Virus record (IMG/VR): IMGVR_UViG_3300001605_000025
Coordinates: 1-64,000 of that record
DNA length: 64,000 bases
From: a virus
Taxonomy: Duplodnaviria > Heunggongvirae > Uroviricota > Caudoviricetes
Direction: 5' to 3' (one strand)
Notes under the pieces: generated by a model
Databases searched by the model: none
What the model was told of the DNA's origin: nothing
What the model saw: only the letters and a program-made list of their open reading frames with translations
Position numbers and translations under genes: made by a program
Part shown: in pieces, positions 19,367 through 46,816 of the stretch
How positions within the stretch are numbered: the stretch's first letter is position 1
Layout: each line of letters opens with the position of its first letter

Positions 19367-19367
19367 T

Positions 19368-21109: not shown

Positions 21110-21264
21110 CCTTGGAACATTAGCGTTCTTTACTGGGTCCCGACCCTCCGCTTTTTTCGAGTGGAACGATCCAGACGACTGGGCCGAACGACTAACGTTT
21201 GATAGTTTAGTAATGAACACTGCAATGCCAGAGCTAATAAATAAAATTATTGGAGGGGATTCCA

Positions 21265-24200: not shown

Positions 24201-27200
24201 TCGATCAACTGAGATACCAGCTGAATCGGGAACGAAGTATTTCAAGAATGCCCCAAAGAGTCAACGATTTGAAGACTCATTAAGTGGACTAGATCGTAAA
24301 GAGTATATGCAAGAATCTCAAGAAGGACTTGATGCGTTACATAATGAAATGAATAATATGACCTGGGAGCAGAGTGGTGAAGTAAATAAAGTAAAAGATG
24401 TACAGAAGAAACGTCAGGACTTAATTGATTTTGTTAAGAATGCTGGTGTAAAAATTGGTCTCGATATCGATGAAACGATTCAAAGTATGAACGTGTTCTC
24501 GATTATGTTTGGTGAAGAGAGCAAGGGATTCTTAGATCCTGAATATATGAATAAGAATTACGAACAGTGGTTTGAGAAGCTAAATAAACTAAGCCCGATA
24601 TATAGTGATATACAAAAGTTCCTCGGGAATAAATCCGTACTGATAACAGCTAGACCAAATCTAGTGGGACTTCACGATAAAGCACAACAAATCGGTAAGC
24701 AGTTCGGAGCTATAGCAACGTTCGCAGTTGAGAATACGAAAGAGAAGGCTAAACTGATTAAGGAACTAGGACTAGAAACGTATTACGATGAGGATACGTT
24801 ACAAGTTACCAAATTACAGAAGGAGCTTGATGCAATAGGTGCAACGACTAAAGTTATGCAGTCTGATTTTGGTGTTGCAAGAGAGAAAGGTGAACTACCA
24901 AATGTTAAGCGTATGGCTGAACAAGCTACAGCTAAACCGGTAACTAGTCCTGTTAAGACTGAATTACCAACAGCTCCGGCACAGAAACCAACTAGGAATA
25001 CGATAGCTGATACGTTAAAGGGAATGGTAATAAACGGTGGTGCGTTAGGTGGTGCTGGACTTGGATTCCTTGGTGGGATGACACTTGGACCGTTACCTGC
25101 AGTCTTTACAGGTTGGTTAGGTGCTAACATTGGGATGTGGGTTGACCGGGTAATCAAGAGTGGTCAACTGAAACAGTCGATTGCGAATCTGTTCAATAAG
25201 ACACCAGTTGTTGAGATTCCACCTACTGTTGTTGAGAAGACAACTCAGGTTGCTACTGGAATTAGTGACGCAATGGCTGGGATGTTAGAACGTTCGACGT
25301 TCCAGGCACAGAAAGTTATACGTGATAAGTTTGCATCTGTTGATAAGAACGGCGGAACGTTAACGATTGAAGAGGCTCCTGGTGCAGAACCTGCTTATCC
25401 TGGTGCAGCTGTTCCAAATGTTCCGTATGTGAATCCTGCTCTCGTTACTAGAGTTGAAGGAAGCGTAACGGGTATAGTTACAGCAATGACTACAGCATCG
25501 AGAGATATAGCGACCGCTGGTGGAAAGGTAGCTGGACAGATACAAGTTCTTGGGATGGAGGACTTCGGAAGTCTTGGTGGTAGTATAAAGGAAGCTGCAC
25601 AGAAAGGTGTTCAAGCTGTTCAGGAGAAAATGCCACGATTAGGATCGTCTGAACGTCCATATACCGGTGGTATTCGTTGGCAGAAGTTCTTAGACGGAAC
25701 GTTGTTTACGGATCAGAAAGCTTATGAGGAAGCAGTTGCAGCGAAGATTGATGAGTCAATTAAGTTCCAGGTTGACACGCTACGTGAGATGACTGGACTA
25801 TCGTTAGAAGCAGCAACAACGTTACGAAAGGATCTAGCTGCTATAATTAAGCCATCTCGTATGAAGATGTCTACGTTAATTGGTAGAGCTAAGGCGTATA
25901 TCGAGACTAAAGGGGCAACTGGAACTACTCCTGAGGCACTGAAGGAGTTTGCAACTGGTGAGGAGAAGATATTTGAACGATCTCATCCTGCAATGAAGAA
26001 TCTAGTTCCTGAGGACGTTACACCGTATCAGAGAATGTTTGGACAGGACTACACAATTAAACTGTCATTCCTAGATTATGATGAGTTCATGGCTGCAGCT
26101 GAGACTGTAAGACAGTTACCTGGATGGACTAGTACCGCGACTAAGGAATTCGAACGGTATGGTCAGCTCGGAACTAATGTTCTACATACGATGAAAGTTA
26201 CCGGACATATACCTGGTGGAAAGGAGATTGGGGGACGGATTGAACAGGTACGGACAGCTACCGAAACGTTAGCAACTGGACCATCGGCTATAACTGAAAG
26301 AAGTCAGTTAGAGATTGGAGATAAACGACTGAACTTACAGGAACGGATGAACTTAGCTGCGATGTATCTGGATAAACTGAACTGGAAGCTTGTACGCGGA
26401 CAGATGGCTCTATTAGGTATCGCATTCTCGATGATGGGTGCAATCAAGATGATCCAGAAGGCCTGGTCGACTGTAACAACTAGTATGTCGAATCTACCTG
26501 ATATATTTAAGAATATCGGTATGGCGATGGCATTCGGACCAGCTAACGCACAGGGATTCCTACGGACTATGCTTGGATCGAGTAACCAGATTGTTGGATC
26601 CTGGAAGAAGTTCACCGGTTATACAGCAACGTTAAACTCGATGCTTGCGTACTTTGCATTCCGTTTACTACAGGATACACGTGTAATCTTTGCGATCGAT
26701 CGATTGGTAGAGAAGATTATAGGACTACTGTCCGATCAGGCATTCTTAGATAAGATCTTCGGATTAATAGCTAACATTATCGATGCGTTACCTGGTGCAG
26801 TTGATTGGATCGTTAGTATGGTAACATGGTTAATGGGAATTTTAGAGACTCCAGGGATGAAGGATGTTCTAAAATGGGCTCTCGCTATGGGATTAGCAGC
26901 TCAGTTCCTGATGACCCCGTTAGCATTGTTAGGTGGTGCCGTACAGTTCTTGGGTTGGGCAGTTAGTGCACTAGCAGCTATACTAGCAACTGTACAAGCA
27001 GGATGGACTCTACTATTGGGACAGTTAATGGGAGCGCCAGCTGCATTAACTCAGGTTGTTGCCGGAATAGCTGGTGGAATCGTTCTTGGACTAGCTGCAG
27101 TCTGGTTACTCGTTAAGATGGGAATCATCGATGCAGTAGTTAAGATCGGTGAAGAGTTCCAGAAGAACTTCCCTGATATAATGGCTATACTGAGGATAGT

Positions 27201-31777: not shown

Positions 31778-33175
31778 ATGACAATCTATTATAACGAGAG
31801 TTACGTCGATGATATAGAGATTGAGTATCCGTTATCACCTATTATAGAGGTTAGCTTAACGTATCGTGTTAAACGAACTGGTTTAATAACAACAGATCTC
31901 AGGTACGACATATGTCATGTTATCCAGAAAACTTTAGAGTATCGTTTTACACGAACAGTAACACTTAGCCGACCGTTAGTAGAGTGGATACCATCATCTG
32001 CGACTATTAACTATAACGATCAGGGAACATATACAGTTAACAATCTGTATGGTAGTAATAATAATGCGTATGCAAAGTTTAACGTTAATACGGTACCAAG
32101 TAGAACGTTACCGTGGACACTCCAGTATGATTACGGGTATGGTGGACAGAAGCAGGTAACCCGATATGTGATGCACTATCCGAATGGATTCACTGGTAGT
32201 GATATATTTCCGAAGTCGTGGGTATTTGAAGGATCTTTAAACGGAACAACTTGGACAGCGTTAGATACGCAGACTAGTCAGACATTTAGTGTGACACGCA
32301 CTATTGATTTCGTAAACAATAAGGCCTACCGTTACTATCGTCTGAGAGTTACCGAACATTGGAGTCCAGCGTCACCTAAAGATCTATATATAGGTAGAGT
32401 AAAGCTTTACGATCAAGGTAGTACGTTACTTGAATATGCTATATATACGGCATCACTAGAAGCAGATACGTATGCTGGAGTTGCTCCAATAAACGTTACG
32501 TTTACCATTACGGATGAAAGTTTACCAAGTCTACCTAGATATCATTGGGATTTCGGAGATGGAACATCTGGATATAGTACAACACCAACAGCACGGAAAC
32601 AATACCTAAATGCTGGTACGTTTACGGTATCTGTTAGTGTCCCTAATCTAGAGTATCTACCTGTCGCATCGGTAGTAGTAACAATTACTGAAAGGCCAGC
32701 TGGACCACATGCAATGTTCTTTGCAAATCCAGTTATGGGAATCGCACCGTTGAATGTTCAGTTTGAGAACATTAGTGTGTATACTGGAGCCGTAACATGG
32801 GACTGGAATTTCGGAGACGGAACAGATCATTCAGCAGAAAAGAATCCGTTACATACGTATACTGGAGGTGCCACATACAACGTATCGTTAACGGTTACAG
32901 ATAGTGATGGGAATGATACGTTAACTCGGGTAAATTATATACATGGATCAGTTGTTCCGCCATCTGCTAACTTCGAGATTGCTAGTGGAAATGCAACGGT
33001 AACATATGGTGAGGGAATATGGGTGGAACTTAAGGTAACCGATAGTTTAGGGAATACCAGTTCTATCACTATGAACGTACTTCTAGATGATGAAGAAGAT
33101 AGATTCATAGAGTTTAGAAATACATCTACTGGTGATATAGTAGAGTGTAGATGGACATATGGTGATCTATCGTGA
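31778..33175 (+). CDS. tail adhesin with discoidin-like domain and two PKD domains
   Basis: HWDFGDGT...TFTVSVSV and WDWNFGDGT...HTYTGGATYNVSLTVTDSDGN PKD signatures, plus an N-terminal F5/8-type-C-like region. Confidence 0.55.
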   Translation: MTIYYNESYVDDIEIEYPLSPIIEVSLTYRVKRTGLITTDLRYDICHVIQKTLEYRFTRTVTLSRPLVEWIPSSATINYNDQGTYTVNNLYGSNNNAYAKFNVNTVPSRTLPWTLQYDYGYGGQKQVTRYVMHYPNGFTGSDIFPKSWVFEGSLNGTTWTALDTQTSQTFSVTRTIDFVNNKAYRYYRLRVTEHWSPASPKDLYIGRVKLYDQGSTLLEYAIYTASLEADTYAGVAPINVTFTITDESLPSLPRYHWDFGDGTSGYSTTPTARKQYLNAGTFTVSVSVPNLEYLPVASVVVTITERPAGPHAMFFANPVMGIAPLNVQFENISVYTGAVTWDWNFGDGTDHSAEKNPLHTYTGGATYNVSLTVTDSDGNDTLTRVNYIHGSVVPPSANFEIASGNATVTYGEGIWVELKVTDSLGNTSSITMNVLLDDEEDRFIEFRNTSTGDIVECRWTYGDLS

Positions 33176-34668: not shown

Positions 34669-34953
34669 ATGGCATTAGATACGTCAGCTGTTAAGATCAC
34701 ACCTGCTGAAGTGAAATCGTTAGTAGCGTCTTATATGTTAGCAGAAACTAAGACACCTACACAGATGAAAGAGTTGATCAGTTCGTATGAAGTTAAGTGT
34801 GAACGGATTGATAGTATGATTAATGATCCAATGATACCAGCAGAACTTAAAAAAGATCTAAAGGATAAGAAGCTTCGGATACTTAAGAAGTATATGGTAC
34901 TACAAGAACATGATAAAAACATATCTATTAAGCCCGTAGAAGAGGTTAAGTAA
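34669..34953 (+). CDS. hypothetical protein
   Basis: 94 aa. Confidence 0.35.
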   Translation: MALDTSAVKITPAEVKSLVASYMLAETKTPTQMKELISSYEVKCERIDSMINDPMIPAELKKDLKDKKLRILKKYMVLQEHDKNISIKPVEEVK

Positions 34954-36437
34954 TGGCATATTACTACGTAGACTATACGAATGGTTCGGACTCTCGTACC
35001 GGATTACGTATACCTGCGGGTGACCATGATTCGGTATCTTATTATACAATCGATTCTACTGCAGATACGACACATTTTGTTGATTCAGCGTTAACTGGAG
35101 CAAACGACTACATTAACGGTGGGTACGTCTATAATGTTACACGGTCGATTGGAGCTGTAGTATCTGATTTTGATGCTGCAACTGATACGGTTACGCTAGC
35201 AACGGCAATTGCTGGAATGACTGCTGGTGACTCCTATTATATACTGAACTCGTTTAAGAATATCTCACAGTTTACAACTGCTGGATCAGCTAGAAGTCCA
35301 GGTGATAAATGTTACGTTAGAGCGAATCAGACACACAATCTAGCTTCTACATCACTAGGATTTGATGAGGATGGATCAGTAAGTGCGTTTATTTATCTGA
35401 TAGGTTGTAACGCGACTCAAGGTGTTGATCCGTATCATGATGGATCTGATGTTAGGCCGACGTTAGACTTTGGTGCTACAACAGCATACGTGCAGATATC
35501 AGGAGATTACTGGTGGTATATCCAGAATCTAGATGTTAGGGGATCAACTAGTTCTAATGGTAATATATCTCTTACTGCTGCAATTGGGACTGTTATTGAT
35601 AACTGTATGTCTAGAGATGGTGGAGCGAGCACAACTGGAATTAGAACTAGTATGACTAGAGGTATTTGGTTGATGAATTGTGTTGTCGCGAAGTGCCCGT
35701 ACTATGGAATGTATCTAATGGAGTCATATGTAGTTGTAACTAGATGTGTAATAGATGCAAATGCATCTGGGTCTTCGTATGGTATAGCTACACGTGGATC
35801 AGAAGTAATAGTTAATAATTGTATAATTGGAGCATCAACACCGTTTCTTACTGATATACACTTTAGTTATTCACATGTACTAGTTGGTAATTCTACATTA
35901 AGTAGTTCAGTTAAACTAGTTACGTTACCTGATTACGTGTTTGGTACAGGATCAACTGAGGATTATCTCGGAGTATATGGAAGTTTCTATCGCAAAGTTA
36001 GTTGTCTTGGGGTAACTAATTCAACAGCAGTTACTAGACCAGGTGGAGCATCATCAACTGTTGTTATGCAACCGTATATAACAATGTGGTATAAGAGTCC
36101 GATTAGTATAAACAATTCGATAATAAATCCAGATTTCCGTGTGTGGTCATCTGCTAACGAAAGAACGATTACCGTTTACATACGTGGGTTTAATTGGGCG
36201 TCGTTTCCGACTGCTGAACAACTATATATAAAAGCGGAATATATTTCAGCTGCTAGCCCACTAACATATAGTTCTGCTGTATCGACACAAGTACTAACAG
36301 ATAATACAACATGGGTAGCCTTTCGGGTTACTGTTACACCAGTTGTTGCGTCATTCATTAATATATGGGTTCAACTTGGACAGTTCGAAGATACATCAAC
36401 TGGTATATACGTTGATCCGAAGTTGGTGGTATCATGA
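34953..36437 (+). CDS. tail fibre/tailspike, right-handed beta-helix-like (paralogue A)
   Basis: Shares MxYYxDYxNG, GDSYY, CYxRANQTH, YIYLIGCN and C-terminal blocks with 36434..37900. Confidence 0.5.
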   Translation: MAYYYVDYTNGSDSRTGLRIPAGDHDSVSYYTIDSTADTTHFVDSALTGANDYINGGYVYNVTRSIGAVVSDFDAATDTVTLATAIAGMTAGDSYYILNSFKNISQFTTAGSARSPGDKCYVRANQTHNLASTSLGFDEDGSVSAFIYLIGCNATQGVDPYHDGSDVRPTLDFGATTAYVQISGDYWWYIQNLDVRGSTSSNGNISLTAAIGTVIDNCMSRDGGASTTGIRTSMTRGIWLMNCVVAKCPYYGMYLMESYVVVTRCVIDANASGSSYGIATRGSEVIVNNCIIGASTPFLTDIHFSYSHVLVGNSTLSSSVKLVTLPDYVFGTGSTEDYLGVYGSFYRKVSCLGVTNSTAVTRPGGASSTVVMQPYITMWYKSPISINNSIINPDFRVWSSANERTITVYIRGFNWASFPTAEQLYIKAEYISAASPLTYSSAVSTQVLTDNTTWVAFRVTVTPVVASFINIWVQLGQFEDTSTGIYVDPKLVVS

Positions 36438-37900
36438 CCGATTACTATATTGATTACGTTAACGGACTAAATACGAATACCGGATTACAATATAATCCGT
36501 TAACAGTTGATTCGACAGCTGATACGACACACTTAACAGATGCAGCACTCACCGGTATGACTATTGGAAACGGATCATTTGTTTGGAATGTAACACGAGG
36601 AGCTGGTGCTACAACACTAGCGTGGGATGATGGAACTGATACGTTAACACTTGGAACTGCGATTGCTGGTATGGCTGCGGGAGATTCATATTATCTGATT
36701 ACACCGTATAAAACGATATCTCAGTTCACGACAGCTGGTGGTGTACGATCTGCGGGTGATAAGTGTTATATTAGAGCAAACCAGACTCATGACTGTTCAG
36801 CTGCTAATATAGAGTTTGATGAAGATGGATCGTCTGTTGATTATATTTATCTAATTGGTTGTAACGTAAGTCAGGGTATTGATCCATGGCATGATAATTC
36901 TGATGTTAGACCCATAATAGATTTTAAGAATAGCTCAACATACTATATGTATTTGTATACTGATTATTGGTGGTATATTAAGAATTTAGACTTTACATCA
37001 ATCTATAGATCGTCTGCTGAAGCTGGAATATTATCAACTTGGGTAGTTCTTGGATTATATATTGACAATTGTCAGTTCCATAATGCTACAGGAACAGCAG
37101 CATATGCATTAAATCTAGCACGAGCAGGATGTGTTACTGTACATAATTGTGGGTTTTATTCTAATACAGGACCTGGATTATTTACAAATGAAAGTTGGGG
37201 AATTATAGAAGGATGCACATTCTCTAGTAGTGGTACTGGAACAGGTACTGGAGCAGCTTTCCGAGGAAGTGAATATATTGTAAAAGATTCAGTTTTTGGA
37301 TCACCAACTACATTTGCATATGATATACAGTCTGGGTACGGAGCGAATGTAATTCTGAGAAACTGTACAGTTAACTATAGTAAGTTTACCATTCCTGCAT
37401 TTTCATGGGGATCAATAGCAGTTGAAGATTATAATGGTGTATACGGAGATAAGTATCTAAAGACAGCTCGGGCAGTAATTACTAGTTCGACTGCTGTTAT
37501 ACGGGAAGGTGGATCACCAGAGTCTGCTTATTTAGTAGCAACATCATCTGATGTTGGTCAATATGATGCAGTAGGACTACATGATTCTATCGAACCAGAT
37601 TTTAAGATTTGGTGTACTGATACTACAACAGTTACTATTTATATGAGAGGAGCGGGATGGAGTTCCTTCCCAGTGACAACATACGACCTGTATATTACAG
37701 CTGAATATATATCTGCGACTAATCCATTAGATTATGAGTATGAGTATTCATCACAGGAATTATCTGATAATACTACATGGGTAGGTTATCAAGTTACGTT
37801 TACACCTGCTACTCCCTCGTACGTAGGAATATATGTATGTTTAGCACGGTACGTAGCTAGCACAGGTGTCTATATAGATATAGAACCAGTTATAACTTGA
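36434..37900 (+). CDS. tail fibre/tailspike (paralogue B)
   Basis: Paralogue of 34953..36437. Confidence 0.5.
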   Translation: MTDYYIDYVNGLNTNTGLQYNPLTVDSTADTTHLTDAALTGMTIGNGSFVWNVTRGAGATTLAWDDGTDTLTLGTAIAGMAAGDSYYLITPYKTISQFTTAGGVRSAGDKCYIRANQTHDCSAANIEFDEDGSSVDYIYLIGCNVSQGIDPWHDNSDVRPIIDFKNSSTYYMYLYTDYWWYIKNLDFTSIYRSSAEAGILSTWVVLGLYIDNCQFHNATGTAAYALNLARAGCVTVHNCGFYSNTGPGLFTNESWGIIEGCTFSSSGTGTGTGAAFRGSEYIVKDSVFGSPTTFAYDIQSGYGANVILRNCTVNYSKFTIPAFSWGSIAVEDYNGVYGDKYLKTARAVITSSTAVIREGGSPESAYLVATSSDVGQYDAVGLHDSIEPDFKIWCTDTTTVTIYMRGAGWSSFPVTTYDLYITAEYISATNPLDYEYEYSSQELSDNTTWVGYQVTFTPATPSYVGIYVCLARYVASTGVYIDIEPVIT

Positions 37901-37907
37901 GGGTATC

Positions 37908-39599
37908 ATGATAACAAGGTGGTCTAACGGTAAATTAGTTAGTACGACTGGATCAATATATGAGTGGGTTAGCGGTAGACCTGTAGTAGTTGTAATGTTG
38001 GAGCGGACAACTGTACAGAAGACATTAGTTTATGCGGTTCGTAGCACACCATCGATTACTAAAACGTTAACGTATACTATTAAGAAGTCGGTAAGCGTTC
38101 AGAAATCATTAGCATATGAGATTAGAAATACACAACCATTCATTGTAGAGAAGACATTAACGTATACTATCAGGACTATATTAACTGTACAGAAGACATT
38201 ATCTTATGCTATTAAAAAGTTGGTAAGTATACAAGACACGTTAGCTTATGTTATTAAGAATGTATATACTATCCAGAAGCCATTATCTTATGTAATCGGG
38301 ACTGTAGTTAGTATAACTAAAACGTTAAACTATTCAATTAAAAGTAACTCCAGTAAAACAGCTAGTTTAACATATGTTATTAGTAAAGTATCAACACTAA
38401 CAGAACCGTTAACATACTGTATTACTAGCAGACAAACTATTCAGATATCGTTAACGTACAATGTTCAGGTACCTTCCAGTCTAACAAAACTATTAACGTA
38501 TAGTATACTACGATCAGAAAGTATAACGAGAACATTAAGCTATACTGTTAAGTTTGTATCTAGTAAAACAATCAGTTTGACATATAGTATTACTGGAGGG
38601 TCGGCATTATCAGTTCCGTTAACGTACTACATTGCTACCGAGCAGGTTATTCAACTACCGTTAACGTATAGTATACAGTTTATTTCTAGTATAGTAGACA
38701 CGTTATCGTATAGTATAAAACGGGTAGAAGATATAACTAAGTCGTTAACCTATTCAATTACAGGTATTCCTACTAGGATACTAAGCTTAACGTATAGTAT
38801 CCACAGAGTATCAACGTTAACACACATACTAACGTATAACGTTCAGTTTACTGGCAGTAAGAATCTTGGATTAACATATATCATCGGTAACGTTCCAGTT
38901 ATACAGAAGACGTTAACATATGCTATCGGACTAACAAGTAGTCTGACAAAACAGTTAGATTATAGGATTAGAACGGTAGTGTTGAAAACACTTGAACAAG
39001 CCTATAGTATTAAATTTGTTCAATCTGTATCTAAGACCCTAACGTATGCTATTGAACGTTCAGAATCGTTGAGCATTTCATTAACCTATCGCATCAACGT
39101 TCCAACTAGTATCGCGAAATCATTAGACTACGTTATATTATCGATTACAAGTCCAACCATACAGAAGACGTTAACATACTATATTAAGAGTAGTAAGGTT
39201 GTACAGAAAACATTAACATACTGTATACCATTCAGTGTTCAGAAAACGTTAACGTTAGCGTATAGTATTGGAGTAGGTACAACAATAACTAAGTCACTGG
39301 ATTACATTATACAATCCAGTGTGGATATTCAGAGGACGTTAAGTTACGTGATTAGGGCAGCATTATCTAAAACGCTATCGTTGACATATTCTGTTCTCGG
39401 ATATGTTCCGTGGTATGAAGATATAACGTTAACGTCTTATATTATATTAGAACAAACATTTACATCTAGTATAGATATAACATATAGTATTGAATCGGAT
39501 GTCGATACCGAGTATCTGTTAGACTCTCAGATTACTAGTCTAGAGATATCACTGGAATCGATAGTAGCTATTGAATTAGAGACAGGAGGAACTATATGA
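37908..39599 (+). CDS. fibrous repeat protein (~34 x 15-aa repeats x-S/T-L-T/S-Y-x-I...)
   Basis: Visible periodic repetition of xTLTYxI throughout the protein. Confidence 0.5.
   Translation: MITRWSNGKLVSTTGSIYEWVSGRPVVVVMLERTTVQKTLVYAVRSTPSITKTLTYTIKKSVSVQKSLAYEIRNTQPFIVEKTLTYTIRTILTVQKTLSYAIKKLVSIQDTLAYVIKNVYTIQKPLSYVIGTVVSITKTLNYSIKSNSSKTASLTYVISKVSTLTEPLTYCITSRQTIQISLTYNVQVPSSLTKLLTYSILRSESITRTLSYTVKFVSSKTISLTYSITGGSALSVPLTYYIATEQVIQLPLTYSIQFISSIVDTLSYSIKRVEDITKSLTYSITGIPTRILSLTYSIHRVSTLTHILTYNVQFTGSKNLGLTYIIGNVPVIQKTLTYAIGLTSSLTKQLDYRIRTVVLKTLEQAYSIKFVQSVSKTLTYAIERSESLSISLTYRINVPTSIAKSLDYVILSITSPTIQKTLTYYIKSSKVVQKTLTYCIPFSVQKTLTLAYSIGVGTTITKSLDYIIQSSVDIQRTLSYVIRAALSKTLSLTYSVLGYVPWYEDITLTSYIILEQTFTSSIDITYSIESDVDTEYLLDSQITSLEISLESIVAIELETGGTI
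37980..39500 (+). repeat. 45-bp periodic coding tandem repeat
   Basis: Degenerate repeats such as aagacattaacgtatactat... Confidence 0.6.
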
Positions 39600-39892
39600 C
39601 CGATGAAAGAATTTACGAAGGAGATGTTGGAGTTCGATTCTTGGTATCAACTGGAATTGATCTCACGACTACAACTGTTACTCAGTTGAAAGTAACGAAA
39701 GGTGACTTATCAACAGCAACTTGGAATGCATCCGTTAACATTGACGATAATACAGTTATGGAGTATATATCTGTTGATGGTGATTTAGATGTTTCAGGAA
39801 AGTACAAGTTATACGCTTACGTAGAATTTACTACCGACTCGAAACATTCGGGACGTGTTGCAACATTCACCGTGTACGATGTATTTAAATAG
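39596..39892 (+). CDS. hypothetical protein
   Basis: 98 aa. Confidence 0.35.
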   Translation: MTDERIYEGDVGVRFLVSTGIDLTTTTVTQLKVTKGDLSTATWNASVNIDDNTVMEYISVDGDLDVSGKYKLYAYVEFTTDSKHSGRVATFTVYDVFK

Positions 39893-39924
39893 TTTCAGGG
39901 TGATGATCTGAACGGTGTTCAGTG

Positions 39925-39938
39925 AACCTATGCGCATA
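39925..39938. promoter_or_regulatory. perfect 14-bp palindrome CCTATGCGCATAGG
   Basis: Located 20 nt upstream of the 39958 gene. Confidence 0.25.
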
Positions 39939-39957
39939 GGACTAAAGGAGAATATGT

Positions 39958-40908
39958 ATGGATGTATCTTTGATTCAACCAATGGTGATGCCGATTGTAG
40001 TCGCTGCGTTCGGTATCTTTGCCGGTTTCATGTTCATATACCGGAATATGACTACGGGAGATCAGTTTTCGTTTGAGAAGTTCCTCCCTACTATGGGAGT
40101 TGGTGCTATCGCAGCACTTTTCCTGTATGCGACAGGTGGAGTATTTCCGGGTATCGATGAAGTGTTCGCTGAACTGATTATTCTTGCACCTGGTGGTGTA
40201 CCAGCAGTTGCTGCTATCTTTGCAGCTGTACTCGCGATACTGAATGGATTCGCATCGACTAAGCCTATTGTTACTGGGAAGGCTACTGTAAAACAGTCTC
40301 TGGTGGGTGTTAGGCCACTTATGTCAACCCCGACAACTGTTCCAGCTAGTAACGTTGATAGTGGTGGTATTGTAGGTACCCGCATTAAGATGGGTGACGG
40401 ACGGTATGCAATCGTTAACGGTGATGGAACGTTCACATTTGATGATGGATCGATTATCAAGTGTGACGGTACTATTGTTAAGCCTGCTGATCCTGTTCCC
40501 GTTCCGGTTCCAGATCCGACAACTGCCCCTGGGTATACGGAAGTTGGTAGTGATAATATGCCTGACAATTACGTTCCGTGGTCAGCACCCGGATTTACGG
40601 TAATGCCACCCTTTAATAAGATTAAGTCTGGTGAGACTGTTAATCTTCAGGTGTACGTCGGAATGAATAAGGATAAGAAGACTTATCCAGCACTCCAGGT
40701 ACTTTGGGGAGACGGAACTGCATTGCAGGTTGTTCCAGTTGTGAACGGACTTGCTACTGCTTCACACAGTTATACGTATGTTAAGGGAGCAGCAAAGTAT
40801 TCAGGTCGGTCGTTCTATCCTACATTTATCGTGATAGAGAACGATGGAACGGTAACGAACTTTAACACAGTACGAAAGTGTTGTGAAGTTGAAGTTCAAT
40901 CTATCTAA
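39958..40908 (+). CDS. membrane protein with PVPVPVPDP linker and PKD-like C-domain
   Basis: Three N-terminal hydrophobic helices and a WGDGT...HSYTY segment. Confidence 0.45.
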   Translation: MDVSLIQPMVMPIVVAAFGIFAGFMFIYRNMTTGDQFSFEKFLPTMGVGAIAALFLYATGGVFPGIDEVFAELIILAPGGVPAVAAIFAAVLAILNGFASTKPIVTGKATVKQSLVGVRPLMSTPTTVPASNVDSGGIVGTRIKMGDGRYAIVNGDGTFTFDDGSIIKCDGTIVKPADPVPVPVPDPTTAPGYTEVGSDNMPDNYVPWSAPGFTVMPPFNKIKSGETVNLQVYVGMNKDKKTYPALQVLWGDGTALQVVPVVNGLATASHSYTYVKGAAKYSGRSFYPTFIVIENDGTVTNFNTVRKCCEVEVQSI

Positions 40909-40975
40909 ACCTTTTTTAGATCCAGTTCTTTATAACAGGGAAAGGCAAACCCTTTTATAAAGGAGAGAATTCTGA

Positions 40976-41293
40976 ATGCAGACCATTAGAGTGGCACAAA
41001 ATGATGTCTATAACATTAGTTATACGTTAACTAATCCAACGATTAACTTGTGGACCGCTGCTACACCTGCGACACCAAGTGTTGATCTAGACATTATTGA
41101 TATAGATACGAAAGAAGTATTGACAACGATTCCGTGTACGGTTACTGCACCGACAACTGGAGTTATTCGGTTTAGTACTGAGGACTTTGCATCACTGGAT
41201 AAAAAGATGTATCTTGCACAGTTCCGGATAATGATAGGAACGACATTACAGTCGATACCTAAGGATTCCGAACAAGCAGTGTGGGTTTACTAA
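40976..41293 (+). CDS. hypothetical protein
   Basis: 105 aa. Confidence 0.35.
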   Translation: MQTIRVAQNDVYNISYTLTNPTINLWTAATPATPSVDLDIIDIDTKEVLTTIPCTVTAPTTGVIRFSTEDFASLDKKMYLAQFRIMIGTTLQSIPKDSEQAVWVY

Positions 41294-41649
41294 GGGTGGT
41301 CGAAATTGATAACGAAGATCAACATGGAGTGGTAGATTATAGGAATCGATGTATTGACGATCATGAAATGCGTCTACGTCATCTTGAGGCGAATAATAAA
41401 GAACAGGCGAAACTATTCGTCATGTCTGAAAAACTTGAAAACCAAATTCAAGCACTTGATGATAAAACCGATGTTCGATTTAAGAACTTAGAGAAGTGGA
41501 TGGATTCACAAATTGCTATTATTGCAGTTGAACGTGCTACTCAGAAAGAACGTGTAGAGGAAGTTAAAGATACTAAAAAAGATCTGTTTGGGATTATAGC
41601 ACTTGTTATATCATGTATCGTGCTTATACTAAACATACTGAAGGGTTGA
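41281..41649 (+). CDS. coiled-coil protein with C-terminal TM anchor
   Basis: C-terminus LFGIIALVISCIVLILNIL. Confidence 0.35.
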   Translation: MGLLRVVEIDNEDQHGVVDYRNRCIDDHEMRLRHLEANNKEQAKLFVMSEKLENQIQALDDKTDVRFKNLEKWMDSQIAIIAVERATQKERVEEVKDTKKDLFGIIALVISCIVLILNILKG

Positions 41650-42023
41650 TGCCTACTATGGTTGCACACAACGAGAACAATGGTATTGTTACCCATTGTA
41701 AACAGGAAACTACTATTGATAGACTAGTAGCGAAACAAGATAAGTATGAAGAACTAATAGCACAACTGATCACTAATGGAAGTAAAATAGATATGTTATC
41801 AGAGAGTATAGGTGAACTGAAAGATTCATTTAGTGTGATAACAAAGTGTTTACACACAATACAAATAACACAAGCTACATTACCATCGCAAACTGAAATT
41901 TCAACAATGAAGGAGGATTTGGTCCGGCATCGGACATGGTTTCAAATCCTTGGGGCTGCTACTGGGATCTTGGCTACACTTACTATTGCGTTGATAATGT
42001 TTATAGTAAATAAGATACTCTAG
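41649..42023 (+). CDS. coiled-coil protein with C-terminal TM anchor
   Basis: The ATG overlaps the upstream stop. C-terminus ILGAATGILATLTIALIMFIV. Confidence 0.35.
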   Translation: MPTMVAHNENNGIVTHCKQETTIDRLVAKQDKYEELIAQLITNGSKIDMLSESIGELKDSFSVITKCLHTIQITQATLPSQTEISTMKEDLVRHRTWFQILGAATGILATLTIALIMFIVNKIL

Positions 42024-42592: not shown

Positions 42593-43699
42593 CTACTTCA
42601 ACTTAACCAGATCACCGGCTAGTGTTTCTATCAGTCTATACTTAATCATATCAGCTAACTTCTCGTATACCTGTTTAGCATTCCAACCTACCATTGAACA
42701 TTCCTTAACGATATCACGTCTTGCACATGTTCCGCCGTGTAACGTAACGATGCGTCTAATCTGAACAAAGTCTAGGTTATTCGCTATGTCATCTCTCCAC
42801 ATCTTTTCATTTTGTAACAACGTTACTAGATCTGGATCCGTAACATCAAGATGCATAACAGGTTCGATCTCACGTTTCATCAGATGGTATCCAAGAATTA
42901 ACCGATTGAAGTAACTCGATTCAAAACTATATATATCCATCTCATGGTACAACTTCAGTATTGAGTCGTCAAATTCGATCTTGTTAATCGTATCCATCTG
43001 GTGTACTTGATCGTCGATGTTACTCCACAACACAGACATAGCTTGTGGATTCGGTCTTACATTTTGTGTCCGATGCATGATATCCATCAACGCTATATTA
43101 TCAGCATACGTAGGTAGGAATACCATAAAGATCAGTCTACGCCCTAACCCAGAACTAAGATCATAACTTCCAGGCTGAATTCCAGCCCACATCGATAGAT
43201 TCGTCTGATAGGCTATAGCTCCAGACGATAATCGTTTGAACACTCGTCCGTGATCTAACGCTGCTAACAGTTGTGTTTCCATCTGACTATTCATCTGATT
43301 CTTTAAGGCATCAGATATCGCTTTAAACTCATCAATTAACAACAGTCCATCTTTATTCAGTTCTGCAGCTCCAGGATTATTAATGCCTAAACCGTTAACC
43401 GACACGACAGTTCCAACAAAACCGGCTTCAGTCATTGACTGTTCACTAGCAATCTGGATCTCCGTCCCGTGAAAGATACCATGTGGATCAGCAGCCATAG
43501 TCTGGAGATAGTAAGTCTTCATAAACCCAGGTGGAGCTACAAATAGTAAGTGGCATCGCATATTCGGTAACTGCTTACCAGCATAGTATATCTCCCGTTT
43601 CTGGTTCATCAGATTGAACGCATGAACAGCATAGCTACAGGTAAAGTATGGAGCGTAGATCTCCCGTTTGTAAGCTTGCCGATCAGCAAGTTCACTCAT
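42593..43699 (-). CDS. AAA+ ATPase, clamp-loader(RFC/gp44)-like with degenerate P-loop
   Basis: LLFVAPPGFMKT in place of GPPGxGKT, and Walker B LLLIDEF. Confidence 0.4.
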   Translation of the reverse strand: MSELADRQAYKREIYAPYFTCSYAVHAFNLMNQKREIYYAGKQLPNMRCHLLFVAPPGFMKTYYLQTMAADPHGIFHGTEIQIASEQSMTEAGFVGTVVSVNGLGINNPGAAELNKDGLLLIDEFKAISDALKNQMNSQMETQLLAALDHGRVFKRLSSGAIAYQTNLSMWAGIQPGSYDLSSGLGRRLIFMVFLPTYADNIALMDIMHRTQNVRPNPQAMSVLWSNIDDQVHQMDTINKIEFDDSILKLYHEMDIYSFESSYFNRLILGYHLMKREIEPVMHLDVTDPDLVTLLQNEKMWRDDIANNLDFVQIRRIVTLHGGTCARRDIVKECSMVGWNAKQVYEKLADMIKYRLIETLAGDLVKLK

Positions 43700-43722: not shown

Positions 43723-44355
43723 TTAGAATCTCTCCTTTAACGTTCTTCTTATCTGAATTGATTTCGCTGGACCAATTCCACGAACTCTCTGTAAATCTTT
43801 ATCTGGAACGTTTGCGATATTTGTTAAACAATTATGAGTCATCATTAATTGTGTCAGTTGTGCTGTTGAGATTCCAAGTAAACGTGCTGCCAGTATCGTG
43901 CGATCTCTTCTAACGGGAACATTATACTTTCCCTCATCAACTTTCTTCATGAACTTAACTAACGTGATCATACCTTCCCATTCGTTCTCTACCCATAACG
44001 GTTGAATACCGTACCGGCAGGCTATCGATGCGATCTCTCCGAAGAGAATATCTGGATCGATTGTTATCCCGATATCTCGCATATTCTTAACGTAAGGTGC
44101 TATAGCGCCTGTGATAAGCAGAATCTGGACTTTATCTTGGTGGACAGATATTCGTTCAATCTGATCGTGTATTCTACGATTAGGGCCTGTGATACTTCCA
44201 TACAAGTCTGCAATTGTCTTACGTTCAGCCAAACACCGTTCCGATTGGTAATCTCCTTCGTCTAGTTTAATCCTCCTGAACTTCATTTCCGGGAACTTCT
44301 TAGTTAAAAAGTCATAGTACTTTGGTGGCTCTCTTGTATCTACGTCGACTGGCAT
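43723..44355 (-). CDS. ERCC4/XPF-Mus81-Hef-type nuclease with C-terminal HhH2
   Basis: DTRE...GDYQSERCLAERKTIADL ERCC4 motif and GIGPAKSIQI HhH. Confidence 0.6.
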   Translation of the reverse strand: MPVDVDTREPPKYYDFLTKKFPEMKFRRIKLDEGDYQSERCLAERKTIADLYGSITGPNRRIHDQIERISVHQDKVQILLITGAIAPYVKNMRDIGITIDPDILFGEIASIACRYGIQPLWVENEWEGMITLVKFMKKVDEGKYNVPVRRDRTILAARLLGISTAQLTQLMMTHNCLTNIANVPDKDLQRVRGIGPAKSIQIRRTLKERF

Positions 44356-44595: not shown

Positions 44596-44811
44596 TTATC
44601 CCTCTCGGAAAACTTTTCGTTCTATCATCATTCGAATAGCTTCTAGTGCTGGAGATATCTCTACCCAGTCTCCAGAAAAATAGCTGGTTGGTAAGTTTGC
44701 TTTATCGCAATATGAATCAAACAGTTCAGACTTCTGCATCCATTCATGTTCTGTGTCCAGAAGCTCTAAAAATTGGACTAACGTTAGATTAGTTTCTTTC
44801 CCTTCCGACAT
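44596..44811 (-). CDS. hypothetical protein
   Basis: 71 aa. Confidence 0.35.
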   Translation of the reverse strand: MSEGKETNLTLVQFLELLDTEHEWMQKSELFDSYCDKANLPTSYFSGDWVEISPALEAIRMMIERKVFREG

Positions 44812-45563
44812 ACCGACACCACGTCATGCTGATGAATTGATTCCTGATGTGTACAGACGACTACCCAATCTTCCATCCATCCATCGATCGTTGCACCGAT
44901 CACTCTTGAAGCATCCTCGACAAACAGATTCGTTCGGGCGGCTCGCTGACACCAATCTAGTTCGTCCGGTCTCTTCATCAACGGTATAGGAACAATGTCT
45001 ACCACTTCGATGATCCGTGCTACAATTGATGTCATTAGATCGTCCAGGTCCTCCTTCGGCGATAACAATCCAGTTACCTGTGCTAAAGCTCGCTGCATAT
45101 GAGGAACCCCTCCTTCTTGTTTCACCATTCTCATGGCACATGGGCACACACTCGCATACGGAACTTTCATAGTCAGATACCAATCTTCTTTATCGGGTAC
45201 ACGGACACCTTCTAACATACTATCTATAAAGATCAATTGTTCGTTCTCCATCTCATATGCTGCTGTCCAATTACATTCCCAGTAACTGTTAGTCGTTTCA
45301 TGTCCTTCAGCTAACGTTTCTAATAATTCTGAGTTCATATAAATCGGATCGTCCTCGTAATCTGTTAACGCATCAACTAATCGTGACATATGAACACCAG
45401 TCCGATCGATCAGATCAACATAAGCAGACTGACTTGTTAACGTTCGTCGTCCGCTAAAGTCTTGCATAAACTGTTTGAATCCTTTAATACCAACTTTCTC
45501 TAGTGGCATACCACCAGACGGACCTTCAGCATAGTCAGGTAACAATCGTACACATGAATCCAT
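44784..45563 (-). CDS. folE2: GTP cyclohydrolase FolE2/MptA-like
   Basis: N-terminal LPDYAEGPSGGMPLEKVGIKGFK resembles the FolE2 LPDVQ...VGIKxL block. The start was trimmed to the ATG with SD AAGGAG. Confidence 0.5.
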   Translation of the reverse strand: MDSCVRLLPDYAEGPSGGMPLEKVGIKGFKQFMQDFSGRRTLTSQSAYVDLIDRTGVHMSRLVDALTDYEDDPIYMNSELLETLAEGHETTNSYWECNWTAAYEMENEQLIFIDSMLEGVRVPDKEDWYLTMKVPYASVCPCAMRMVKQEGGVPHMQRALAQVTGLLSPKEDLDDLMTSIVARIIEVVDIVPIPLMKRPDELDWCQRAARTNLFVEDASRVIGATIDGWMEDWVVVCTHQESIHQHDVVSVCRKGKKLI

Positions 45564-45564
45564 A

Positions 45565-45738
45565 CTACTGCTCCTTTGGGTTCTTCCAGTTACCAAATAC
45601 AGTCTCAAGAACAGCTGCTGAATATGGATGTGTATTACATGAATTATGAAGTAGCTGTTGGTCACAGCTTATAGCTCGTAACGCCTCTCCAATTGCATCT
45701 ACTTTCTGTTCAAGTCTTTTAAAGTCTTTAGTAGTCAT
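45565..45738 (-). CDS. small hypothetical protein (57 aa)
   Basis: The ATG overlaps the QueE stop (TAATG). Approximate. Confidence 0.3.
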   Translation of the reverse strand: MTTKDFKRLEQKVDAIGEALRAISCDQQLLHNSCNTHPYSAAVLETVFGNWKNPKEQ

Positions 45739-46385
45739 TATCTCACCTTATACAGTACATGAAGTCTCGGGCTTACGGCTCCGTTAACTCCATATTCATC
45801 CATCATACGAATAATCTCACGAACCATTCTATTATGTTCCGTTATCATCGTATCGTCCTGGGGAGTCATCGGCATAAAGTACATTCTCACTTCAGAGTGT
45901 TCAGTTGCCCATTTCATCCACCATCTAATATTCTCATACCTAATAACTGGTTTAATAACTACATCTACTTCACAAATGTTAGTCCACAACGTTAATAGAT
46001 CGGTCAGTCCAGAAGTAGGTAGTTCACTATCTTTCGGACTAACAACTACCAGATCGAACGCAGCAACACCAAACGGTATCGTTCCATTCGTTTCGATAGC
46101 ATGTGTCATACCTAACGATTCAACTGAAGCGATCGTATCCTTTATCTCATCAACCTGGAGTCCAGGTTCTCCACCAGTCCAGACAACGTTCCTCACTCCT
46201 TTCTTATATGCTTTAGTAATCAGGCTTTTTAGTTCAGTCCGACTAACATTAATATACAGTGTTGCGTATTTCGTATCACAAAAAGGACAATGAAGATTAC
46301 AGCCCGATAGTCTTATAAACAACGACCGTACTCCAGCTTGTGGACCTTCACCCTGAATCGATATAAACGTTTCGTTTAGTCTCAT
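45738..46385 (-). CDS. queE: 7-carboxy-7-deazaguanine synthase (radical SAM)
   Basis: FISIQGEGPQAGVRSLFIRLSGCNLHCPFCDTKY. Confidence 0.8.
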   Translation of the reverse strand: MRLNETFISIQGEGPQAGVRSLFIRLSGCNLHCPFCDTKYATLYINVSRTELKSLITKAYKKGVRNVVWTGGEPGLQVDEIKDTIASVESLGMTHAIETNGTIPFGVAAFDLVVVSPKDSELPTSGLTDLLTLWTNICEVDVVIKPVIRYENIRWWMKWATEHSEVRMYFMPMTPQDDTMITEHNRMVREIIRMMDEYGVNGAVSPRLHVLYKVR

Positions 46386-46816
46386 TGTAACCCTCTCTCA
46401 GGAGTCCACGTGACGGTAGCCTTACTAACATCATTCTCCCATACCGTCACACTAACCATTGTTAGTGGTCCAAGTTTCCAGTTGTACACATCCATCACAC
46501 TATTACAAAGTAACGTTGCAATATTTTCGCATGTTGGATTCTCTCTCGTTGGATATACTAGTTGATTACACGATCTAAGTATCTGAACTAACGGATCAGA
46601 TTCTTTCAGTATCACTTTATGATCCATACCATCCGTTAGTCTTTTAAGTACCGTAAAGTTCTCGAGGTACCCAACAGAGTTAACTTTGTCACCCTGTAAG
46701 ACAAAATCTACTTTCCAATTATGCCCATGTAAGAATCCACATTTCGAATCATCACCATACTGTCTATGTGCAGCTTCAAAATCGACAGACGTCTGTATCG
46801 TAACCATGATGTTCAC
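46382..46816 (-). CDS. queD: 6-carboxy-5,6,7,8-tetrahydropterin synthase
   Basis: CGFLHGHNWKV motif, 144 aa, ATGA overlap with queE. Confidence 0.75.
   Translation of the reverse strand: MNIMVTIQTSVDFEAAHRQYGDDSKCGFLHGHNWKVDFVLQGDKVNSVGYLENFTVLKRLTDGMDHKVILKESDPLVQILRSCNQLVYPTRENPTCENIATLLCNSVMDVYNWKLGPLTMVSVTVWENDVSKATVTWTPERGLQ

What the first reader, a model, noticed from the sequence alone, without database searches (positions are those of the whole stretch)
37908..39599. Protein built from about 34 tandem 15-residue repeats (45-bp DNA periodicity)
A near-crystalline repeat x-x-x-S/T-L-T/S-Y-x-I-x-x-x-x-S/T-I/V runs for about 1.5 kb. It suggests a beta-solenoid or fibre of tunable length. 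At the DNA level it is a recombination-prone periodic repeat.
Basis: seen in the sequence. Interest (0 to 1): 0.5.

Follow-up and report, generated by a model that had tools for sequence, protein, structure and literature searches.

The report
Viral fibre protein of 14-residue repeats
A late gene of an uncultured tailed virus encodes a protein made almost wholly of about 34 tandem 14-residue beta-strand units (not 15), belonging to an unannotated family of about 320 virus proteins in which the array probably forms a rigid stalk of variable length.

Summary
The ORF (37908-39599, +, 563 aa) and the count of about 34 units are right. The period is wrong: it is 14 aa / 42 bp (protein autocorrelation z about 14, DNA z 10.5). 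Lag 15 aa / 45 bp falls below background.

The unit is K-[TS]-L-[TS]-Y-x-[IV]-x4-[ST]-[IL]-[TQ]. Odd positions are 67% hydrophobic; even positions are 53% Thr/Ser.

The motif has no Pfam, PHROG, NCBIfam, PDB-sequence or cultured-phage match. It does define a family of 321 clusters among 1.84 billion, with roughly 4-74 units per protein. In most members the array follows N-terminal lectin, CBM, Kelch or FN3 domains, and the gene lies between the capsid and head-tail adaptor genes.

Here the protein is shaft-only. It sits at the end of the tail module, after two beta-helix proteins, and is translationally coupled to a 98-aa ORF. That gene pair is conserved in one distant relative.

"Beta-solenoid/fibre of tunable length" is supported at prediction and family level. 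"Recombination-prone DNA repeat" is not: units average 48% DNA identity, the longest exact repeat is 20 nt, and TRF finds nothing.

This is a new sequence family of a known kind, of moderate interest.

The parts
37899..37903 (+). Shine-Dalgarno-like GAGGG, 4 nt upstream of the ATG; overlaps the TGA stop (37898-37900) of the upstream beta-helix gene
   Evidence: read directly from the sequence
37908..39599 (+). Whole ORF, 563 aa, pI 9.5, 29% Thr+Ser; the repeat protein
   Evidence: The exact protein is called on 10 metagenomic contigs. No >=60-aa ORF on the other strand inside it; no Rfam match in 36000-42000
37908..38018 (+). Non-repeat N-terminus, aa 1-37 (MITRWSNGKLVSTTGSIYEWVSGRPVVVVMLERTTVQ); possible attachment segment
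   Evidence: AF2 pLDDT <50. The 'EW' segment aligns with aa 51-52 of the syntenic relative P0033. The attachment role is inferred
38019..39374 (+). Canonical repeat array, aa 38-489: 32 units of 14 aa (two of 16 aa at 38103-38150 and 39117-39164)
38319..38948 (+). Higher-order repeat: three copies of a 5-unit (70 aa / 210 bp) block, aa 138-347
   Evidence: the repeat finder family D5 at 210-nt spacing. DNA identity at unit-lag 5 is 0.58 against 0.45-0.52 at other lags; none of 5000 unit permutations reached the observed value (p < 2e-4)
39375..39596 (+). Degenerating, acidic C-terminal end, aa 490-563 (13 D+E, 0 K+R, against 16 D+E and 49 K+R in the array); contains VPWYEDITLTS, shared with relative P0033
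   Evidence: AF2 pLDDT <50
39596..39892 (+). Downstream 98-aa ORF, translationally coupled (ATGA overlap, AGGAGG 7 nt upstream); conserved partner gene
   Evidence: 36% identical to the 95-aa ORF directly after the homologous repeat gene in L080. No family or PDB match
34953..36437 (+). Upstream beta-helix protein 1 (494 aa), a tailspike/depolymerase-like neighbour
   Evidence: Pfam PF13229 Beta_helix, 29.3 bits against cut-off 25.9; 43% identical to the next gene
36434..37900 (+). Upstream beta-helix protein 2 (488 aa), tandem paralogue; ends 7 nt before the repeat gene, in a different frame
   Evidence: Pfam PF13229, 38.9 bits

Best explanation
The gene encodes a late, probably virion-associated structural protein of the host-recognition end of the tail module of an uncultured tailed virus. 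About 34 tandem 14-residue strand-plus-turn units stack into an elongated all-beta rod. The best current model is a flattened beta-helix with two units (28 aa) per turn. Odd positions (I13, K/hydrophobic 1, L3, Y5, I7) face the core. The Thr/Ser-rich even positions form the two flat outer faces. The variable positions 8-11 form the turns. Seventeen turns would give a rod about 8 nm long.

The rod acts as a rigid shaft or spacer whose length is set by the number of units. In most family members the shaft carries N-terminal sugar-binding or adhesion domains. Here it has none. It most likely works with separately encoded partners: the translationally coupled 98-aa protein, and perhaps the two beta-helix proteins encoded just upstream.

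Shown: the ORF, the 14-aa period, the family, the variable copy number, the synteny and the conserved gene pair.
Predicted only: the fold.
Inferred: the virion location, the shaft role and the partners.
For: Periodicity and beta-type alternation.

Family: 36 homologues. 321 cluster representatives at E<=1e-3, 180 at <=1e-10. Consensus from 1922 units is K1(85%)-S-L3(83%)-x-Y5(99%)-x-V/I7-x4-[SA]-[IVL]13-T14(67%).

Stalk role: arrays of roughly 4-74 units follow CBM96, Laminin_G_3, FN3 and Kelch domains.

Virus structural context:
- The window has terminase, capsid, tail-tube-like and 2379-aa tape-measure-like genes upstream on the same strand.
- There is a 7-nt gap to the upstream gene and an ATGA overlap with the downstream gene.
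- No excess of promoter-like or terminator-like sites.
- In 22 of 51 IMG/VR loci the homologue lies directly before the head-tail adaptor gene.

Conserved pair: in L080, a distant relative of this virus (45% and 41.5% identical neighbours), the repeat protein P0033 aligns end to end (24% identity, shared C-terminal VPWYE.I.LTS). It is again followed by a ~95-aa ORF, 36% identical to the window's 98-aa ORF. It is flanked by lectin/CBM-type genes rather than beta-helix genes.
Against: No direct evidence that the protein is in the virion.

The fold is a monomer prediction of only moderate confidence. The full-length model had pLDDT 54 and the alignment held only about 35 sequences. AlphaFold tends to give solenoids for beta-rich repeats.

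No sequence signal distinguishes two units per turn: variable positions and unit lengths show no lag-2 preference. The 5-unit block duplication requires the two sheets to be equivalent.

A conserved Lys on the hydrophobic face is unusual for a core.

This member lacks the family's usual N-terminal domain, Y/P/K-rich tail and head-module position, so function inferred from relatives may not transfer.
Confidence: 0.55

Rival explanations
1. Same role (a virion fibre shaft), but the chain is not a monomeric solenoid. Three chains intertwine into a trimeric fibre (triple beta-helix or triple beta-spiral type). Each 14-residue unit would contribute about 1.3 nm of rise, giving a fibre of about 40 nm.
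For: Most phage fibres are trimers (general knowledge). The hydrophobic pattern L-x-Y-x-I ... I resembles positions 1, 3, 5 and 11 of the roughly 15-residue adenovirus shaft repeat (from memory, not tested). 28% of family units are 15 aa. The conserved Lys on the hydrophobic face and the lack of a lag-2 signal fit equivalent units better than a two-sheet monomer. The monomer AF2 confidence is only moderate.
Confidence: 0.2
2. It is a head or neck fibre (capsid-attached decoration), like most of its family, and only happens to be encoded at the end of the tail gene block.
For: In L001, L003, L009 and L010 the homologue lies between the major capsid protein and the head-tail adaptor or closure genes. 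The same holds for 22 of 51 IMG/VR loci, and a conserved ~140-aa protein lies upstream in 33 of 51.
Against: In this window the capsid-to-tube interval (18523-19727) holds only three small ORFs. The gene and its 98-aa partner lie among receptor-binding-type genes both here and in the relative L080. The window protein lacks the family's C-terminal Y/P/K-rich tail. None of the 51 loci shares any neighbour with the window.
Confidence: 0.12
3. It is not a virion part. It would be a secreted or cell-surface beta-rich protein made during infection, for example an amyloid-like (curli-like) polymer, or a flat Thr/Ser-faced binding surface for polysaccharide or S-layer.
Against: No signal peptide or transmembrane segment is evident by eye in the N-terminus. 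There is no Curlin-repeat or other Pfam match. The operon context is tail and structural genes. Relatives are fused to virion-type adhesion domains in head modules.
Confidence: 0.06
4. The periodicity is a chance or compositional artefact, or the ORF is not a real gene.
For: TRF finds nothing at DNA level. GC is lower here (0.347, against about 0.41 elsewhere in the window).
Against: Autocorrelation z-scores are 10-15 against residue and codon shuffles. The frame is open for 563 codons with an SD site. There are hundreds of homologues with the same motif.
Confidence: 0.01

Closest known systems
SufD / SufB core beta-helix (Fe-S cluster assembly; PDB 1vh4, 5awf, 9h78)
   Same: [quoted passage not shown] SufB is also proposed to have polar residues (Lys, Thr, Gln) inside its core.
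Curli subunit CsgA (two-sheet beta-solenoid, functional amyloid; PDB 8c50)
   Different: The curlin repeat is about 19-23 aa per coil with Ser/Gln/Asn ladders (general knowledge). No Curlin_rpt hit. Rmsd is 9.8 A. There is no secretion signal and no csg genes.
Adenovirus fibre shaft / reovirus sigma1 triple beta-spiral (about 15-residue repeats)
   Same: A virus attachment fibre whose length is set by the number of short beta repeats of nearly the same length. The alternating hydrophobic pattern is similar (from memory).
   Different: The period is 14, not 15, in this protein and in 68% of family units. There is no conserved Gly/Pro turn. Trimer state is unknown. There is no sequence or PDB match.
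Beta-helix stalks of tailspikes, autotransporter passengers and fungal/bacterial adhesins (e.g. UpaB 6bea, Awp1 7o9q, phage tailspikes)
   Different: Those are three-sided helices of about 20-25 aa per turn with irregular sequence. PF13229 matches the two upstream genes but not this one.
Capsid/neck fibres and decoration adhesins of phages (phi29 gp8.5 head fibre, T4 Hoc, neck fibres of A-1(L))
   Same: Most family members sit in the head-to-neck gene interval and carry lectin-like heads on the repeat stalk. That is the architecture expected of such fibres.
   Different: There is no sequence relation. The window's member lies in the tail-end module and has no head domain. Virion location is untested for any member.

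Membership tests
Unnamed 'K-S-L-x-Y-x-V' 14-residue repeat family of uncultured tailed viruses (defined here) | Tandem 14/15-aa units with conserved L3, Y5, V/I7 and I/V/L13 | tested here: met
   L3 28/28, Y5 28/28, I/V7 28/28 and I/L/V13 22/28 in canonical units. The family logo comes from 1922 units.
Unnamed 'K-S-L-x-Y-x-V' 14-residue repeat family of uncultured tailed viruses (defined here) | Significant sequence similarity to other members | tested here: met
   Best hit E 7e-44 at 29% identity over 79% of the query. 321 representatives at E<=1e-3 with the array alone as query.
Unnamed 'K-S-L-x-Y-x-V' 14-residue repeat family of uncultured tailed viruses (defined here) | Conserved K1 and T14 (85% and 67% in the family) | tested here: inconclusive
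   Only K 13/28 (otherwise L/I/D/R/A) and T 13/28 plus Q 9/28 in the window protein. It is a divergent, Thr-rich member.
Unnamed 'K-S-L-x-Y-x-V' 14-residue repeat family of uncultured tailed viruses (defined here) | Usual architecture: N-terminal globular binding domain, then the array, then a short Y/P/K-rich tail | tested here: not met
   The window protein has a 37-aa N-terminus and an acidic degenerate C-terminus. Shaft-only members do exist, such as the 925-aa L003 paralogue and P0018, but those keep Tyr-rich tails.
Unnamed 'K-S-L-x-Y-x-V' 14-residue repeat family of uncultured tailed viruses (defined here) | Usual gene position: between the major capsid protein and the head-tail adaptor | tested here: not met
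   Here the gene lies after the tape-measure and beta-helix genes at the end of the + strand block. Compare.
Triple beta-spiral fibre shaft (adenovirus fibre, reovirus sigma1) | About 15-residue repeat with a conserved Gly/Pro in the turn | tested here: not met
   The period is 14. No position has conserved G/P.
Triple beta-spiral fibre shaft (adenovirus fibre, reovirus sigma1) | Homotrimer with intertwined chains | not testable with these tools
SufB/SufD (SUFBD core) family | Two-strand-per-turn flattened right-handed beta-helix | tested here: inconclusive
SufB/SufD (SUFBD core) family | Sequence membership (Pfam SufBD domain) and flanking helical domains | tested here: not met
   No Pfam or NCBIfam hit. 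No helices are predicted anywhere in the protein.
Curli CsgA / Curlin repeat | Curlin_rpt sequence motif (Ser/Gln/Asn ladders), about 19-23 aa per coil | tested here: not met
Right-handed three-sided beta-helix (Pfam Beta_helix PF13229; tailspike/pectate-lyase type) | PF13229-type repeat match | tested here: not met
   The upstream genes match (29 and 39 bits). The repeat protein does not.
Pfam YTV repeat (PF07639) and DUF6468 (PF20072) | Score above the gathering threshold | tested here: not met
   The window protein has no hit at E<=1. Only single relatives score: P0028 for YTV (25 bits against 21) and P0039 for DUF6468 (52.7 bits, no single stretch passing).

The most novel reading that the evidence does not exclude
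The 14-residue K-S-L-x-Y-x-V unit defines a so far undescribed class of length-variable virion stalk. It would be a flattened two-strand-per-turn beta-helix whose narrow core is zipped by facing Lys-Tyr and Leu-Leu ladders. Uncultured tailed viruses would use it as a modular 'ruler' to hold lectin-type heads on capsid, neck or tail. It would be shared between bacterial phages and what may be an archaeal (methanogen-associated) tailed virus. In the window's shaft-only, Thr/Ser-faced version the rod itself, together with the conserved 98-aa partner, would be the adaptor that carries interchangeable receptor-binding proteins.
Probability: 0.25. Interest if true: 0.55.

Novelty: new variant of a known kind. 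Interest (0 to 1): 0.4.

Why it matters
Repeat-built beta rods are a familiar way for viruses to make fibres. This particular repeat is absent from Pfam, PHROGs, NCBIfam, the PDB and about 50,000 cultured-phage genomes, yet it recurs in some 320 protein clusters from metagenomes. Naming it would annotate large 'hypothetical' genes in many uncultured phage genomes.

Most of those genes sit in the poorly understood capsid-to-adaptor interval, where head or neck fibres with sugar-binding heads would be encoded. The wide range of unit numbers (roughly 4-74) and the very regular unit make it a natural test case for how fibre length is set. It could also serve as a designable rigid spacer. For this window alone, the finding is a plausible tail-module shaft protein of unknown partner. 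That is useful, but not surprising.

Tried and rejected
- Period 15 aa / 45 bp: rejected by autocorrelation.
- TRF on the DNA: no array. The repeat is visible only in protein or by autocorrelation.
- A gene split from, or frameshifted with, the upstream beta-helix gene: rejected. The frames differ, the gene has its own SD, and the N-terminal domains of relatives show no similarity to the beta-helix protein.
- Known families: Pfam, PHROGs and NCBIfam give nothing credible. The only hits are phrog_29227 at E 2e-4 with no stretch passing, and LegC2C7 at 19 bits against a cut-off of 350. PDB by sequence and by a six-unit profile gives nothing.
- Cultured phages (INPHARED tblastn): no match for the window protein or for the 925-aa all-repeat paralogue. 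Only the N-terminal domain of P0001 matches Streptomyces phage Hiyaa gp13, which has a different C-terminal repeat.
- Close relatives for comparing copy number:
  - IMG/VR and JGI metagenome scans with the protein, and IMG/VR with the beta-helix neighbour, found none.
  - Contigs carrying the identical protein are near-clonal copies.
  - The only syntenic relative is L080/P0033, at 24% identity.
- Full-length AF2 model: pLDDT 54, so its Foldseek hits are not significant. The BFVD viral fold search was uninformative.
- Sequence evidence for two units per turn (lag-2 similarity, alternation of 14/15-aa units): none overall, though a few proteins alternate 14/15.
- Host assignment: the pattern scan of 185,579 species genomes gave only three real hits, all MAG contigs.
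- Literature searches for a described 14-residue phage repeat or for head/neck fibres of this type found nothing relevant.
Full report
**Observation.** The coordinates are exact. 37908..39599 (+) is a single 563-aa ORF. An SD-like GAGGG lies 4 nt before its ATG, and the stop codon of the upstream gene lies 7 nt before the ATG. The protein is visibly repetitive, but the period is 14 residues, not 15.
- Self-identity of the protein is 0.27 at lags 14, 28, 42, 56 and 70, against 0.091 +/- 0.012 in residue shuffles (z 13-15). At lag 15 it is 0.053, below background.
- At DNA level, identity is 0.411 at lag 42 and 0.427 at lag 84, against 0.291 in codon shuffles (z 10.5 and 12.2). Lag 45 gives z -2.7.
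- All odd lags are depressed and even lags raised. This is the mark of a beta-strand alternation that stays in phase across units because 14 is even.

**Unit anatomy.** Anchoring on [LAIV]xYx[IV] gives 14-residue spacing almost throughout aa 38-489. There are two 16-residue units (aa 66-81, 404-419) and one unit with Q for L. Two to three degenerate units follow. 'About 34 units' is therefore right.
- The unit is K-[TS]-L-[TS]-Y-x-[IV]-x-x-x-x-[ST]-[IL]-[TQ].
- In 28 canonical units L3 and Y5 are invariant and position 7 is I (24) or V (4).
- Odd positions are 67% hydrophobic. Even positions are 20% hydrophobic and 53% Thr/Ser.
- The array is basic (49 K+R against 16 D+E). The last 74 residues are acidic (13 D+E, no K/R).

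**DNA level.** Tandem Repeats Finder reports nothing inside the gene, even at score 30.
- Units average 48% DNA identity (max 74%), and the longest exact direct repeat is 20 nt.
- The repeat finder recovers only 60-72% identical copies.
- There is one trace of how the array grew. Aa 138-347 is three copies of a 5-unit (210-bp) block. DNA identity at unit-lag 5 is 0.58, against 0.45-0.52 at other lags, and none of 5000 unit permutations reached it (p < 2e-4). This is an old event.
- The exact protein is called on 10 metagenomic contigs. The four I compared are 99.9-100% identical to the window over 3.5-21.7 kb. They show no length variation, but they are also too close to be a real test.
- 'Recombination-prone' is therefore not supported for the present sequence. 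The family as a whole has clearly gained and lost units over long times.

**Context in the window.** The window is a tailed-virus genome, distant from cultured phages.
- Gene content:
  - terminase large subunit (13003-14478);
  - a major-head-protein match (17599-18513);
  - a tail protein (19739-20713);
  - a 2379-aa tape-measure-sized ORF (21250-28389);
  - on the other strand, family B DNA polymerase, ribonucleotide reductase and others.
- blastn of the terminase/portal region and tblastn of the repeat protein find nothing in 50,697 phage records.
- After the tape-measure-sized ORF come a PKD/discoidin-type protein (31778-33175) and two tandem paralogous right-handed beta-helix proteins, 43% identical (34953-36437, 36434-37900). 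Then comes the repeat gene.
- A 98-aa ORF follows whose ATG overlaps the repeat gene's stop (ATGA), with AGGAGG 7 nt upstream.
- Promoter-like and terminator-like sites are not enriched, and no Rfam family matches.
- The gene therefore sits in one long late operon, at its host-recognition end.

**Family.** The repeat matches no Pfam, PHROG or NCBIfam model. It matches no PDB sequence, either alone or as a six-unit profile.
- It is not an orphan. The 5.8-billion-protein index gives 36 unnamed homologues, the best at E 7e-44 and 29% identity.
- An exhaustive phmmer search with the array alone gives 321 cluster representatives at E<=1e-3, 180 at <=1e-10 and 45 at <=1e-30, out of 1.84 billion. Their lengths in the listed sets run from 315 to 2446 aa.
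- A crude anchor-chaining count on the 163 proteins held gives a median of 24 units and a maximum of 74; one weak hit chains none.
- The logo from 1922 units is K1 (85%), S2, L3 (83%), x, Y5 (99%), x, V/I7, four variable positions, S/A12, I/V/L13, T14 (67%). Unit lengths are 14 (68%), 15 (28%) and 16 (3%).
- The array is nearly always C-terminal and is followed by a short Tyr/Pro/Lys-rich tail.
- The N-terminal parts differ between members:
  - CBM96, Laminin_G_3 and FN3;
  - Kelch propellers;
  - a domain shared with gp13 of Streptomyces phage Hiyaa, phrog_14065.
- Some phages carry two members in tandem. One of these is a 925-aa protein that is almost all repeat (L003).

**Where relatives are encoded.** In L001, L003, L009 and L010 the gene lies between the major capsid protein and the head-tail adaptor, head-closure and tube genes. 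The gene directly downstream matches the head-tail adaptor family phrog_442.
- A degenerate DNA pattern for two successive units hits 58 IMG/VR contigs.
- In 51 of them I find a repeat ORF of at least 6 units:
  - 22 have an adaptor homologue immediately downstream;
  - 12 are cut by the contig end;
  - 17 have no recognised downstream neighbour.
- 33 of the 51 have a conserved ~140-aa protein upstream, and none shares any neighbour with the window.
- The same pattern finds only three real cases among 185,579 species genomes, all MAG contigs. The family belongs essentially to uncultured, mostly non-integrated viruses.

**The one syntenic relative.** P0033 (646 aa) aligns with the window protein end to end at 24% identity. 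The alignment includes the C-terminal motif VPWYE[DR]I[ST]LTS.
- Its contig L080 shares the 95/98-aa downstream ORF (36% identity). On the other strand it shares the 383/368-aa protein (45%) and the ERCC4 nuclease (41.5%).
- In L080 the array is interrupted by globular segments that look FN3-like by eye (untested).
- The flanking genes there are lectin/CBM types (DUF2341-like upstream, CBM_4_9 downstream) rather than beta-helix proteins.
- The repeat protein plus its small partner is therefore the conserved core of this module, while the neighbouring binding or enzymatic proteins are exchanged. This is my main reason for reading it as a shaft or adaptor of the tail's host-recognition apparatus.

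**Fold.** Full-length AlphaFold2 with 34 sequences is poor (pLDDT 54) but all-beta. Its Foldseek hits are not significant; the best is curli CsgA at E 0.08.
- A 15-unit segment (aa 138-347) gives pLDDT 69.6 and pTM 0.57. Strands of 10-12 residues are separated by 3-residue turns at unit positions 9-11 or so. That is where the sequence is variable, where Gly/Pro occur, and where the 16-residue units carry their insertions.
[quoted passage not shown] SufB is described as having a hydrophilic, Lys/Thr-lined tunnel in its core (PMC6006206).
- On this model one turn is two units (28 aa), and 34 units give a rod of about 8 nm.

**What follows from the model (inference only).** Because successive strands run in opposite directions across the rod, the core would pair I13 with V/I7, K1 with Y5, and L3 with L3. 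This would explain why Lys and Tyr are conserved together. It would also explain why Lys is replaced by Leu or Ile in half of this protein's units.

**Caveats on the fold.**
- It is a monomer prediction of moderate confidence.
- No sequence signal separates the two sheets.
- I could not test a trimer. If the protein were a trimeric beta-spiral-like fibre, it would be about 40 nm long.

**Most likely function.** It is a rigid beta rod that serves as a shaft of set length in a virion appendage. In most relatives it holds sugar-binding heads away from the capsid or neck. In this virus it is probably a shaft-only component at the tail tip, working with the 98-aa partner and perhaps the beta-helix proteins.
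- Shown: gene, repeat, family, variable length, synteny.
- Predicted: fold.
- Inferred: virion location, partners, role.

**Comparison and novelty.** It works like other repeat-built virus fibres and beta-helix stalks. It is not a member of the triple beta-spiral, curlin, SufBD or PF13229 families, because the defining sequence features were tested and not met. It is a divergent, architecture-poor member of an undescribed family. I rate it a new variant of a known kind, with interest 0.4.

Noticed in passing
window 56223-58508 (-), 61973-63496 (-), 43723-44355 (-), 42593-43699 (-): The virus may be archaeal. Its family B DNA polymerase matches haloarchaeal tailed viruses best (HRTV-25, 27.7% identity over 97%). 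Its Ro-like RNA-binding protein matches Halogranum tailed virus 1 best (32.6%). It also has an ERCC4/XPF-type nuclease and a weak, sub-threshold MCM P-loop match. The contigs come from methanogenic oil-sands tailings samples. Terminase matches are weak and bacterial or cyanophage, and the portal has none.
   Followed up: partly
window 44784-45563, 45738-46385, 46382-46807 (all -): A 7-deazaguanine (preQ0-type) synthesis set is present: GTP cyclohydrolase I (PF02649), a radical-SAM QueE-like protein and a PTPS/QueD-like protein. This suggests modified DNA. Pfam calls were taken from L005 and mapped onto the window.
   Followed up: no
window 21250-28389 (+): The 2379-aa tape-measure-sized ORF carries unexpected matches: phrog_289 'GTP-binding domain' (aa 543-734, E 1e-14) and Pfam YpsA plus a weak DNA_processg_A hit.
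   Followed up: no
window 34953-37900 (+): There are two tandem paralogous right-handed beta-helix proteins (43% identity over their full length). Neither has a recognisable tailspike-type N-terminal anchor domain. In the relative L080 this position is taken by lectin/CBM-type genes.
   Followed up: partly
window 39958-40908 (+); L007 3293-4250: The 316-aa ORF has a hydrophobic N-terminus and a PVPVPVP linker. In one otherwise 99.95% identical contig (L007) it is split into 69-aa and 262-aa ORFs by a single indel. This is a population variant or an assembly error.
   Followed up: no
L003 5227-8004 and 8001-10352; L015, L017, L038; L011 8001-8948 and 10172-12241: Several phages carry two family members side by side. 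Typically one is almost pure repeat (925 aa in L003) and one has an N-terminal domain. This hints at hetero-oligomeric or two-length fibres.
   Followed up: partly
C-termini of P0041, P0057, P0059, P0005 and others: Canonical family members end in a short basic, aromatic tail with reiterated S-P-Y/F-x-K-K motifs. This could be the virion anchor. The window protein lacks it.
   Followed up: no
L001 7569-7997, L009 7489-7908 and 33 of 51 IMG/VR loci: A conserved ~140-aa protein of unknown function, with no Pfam or PHROG match, lies upstream of the family's gene in the capsid-to-adaptor interval. It is a candidate capsid-side partner.
   Followed up: partly
L012 7001-10333 (Streptomyces phage Hiyaa gp13): Hiyaa gp13 shares the N-terminal domain and the capsid-to-adaptor position of family members P0001 and P0005. 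Its C-terminal half is a different, Ala/Arg-rich degenerate repeat. The same 'head' is thus mounted on unrelated repeat stalks.
   Followed up: partly
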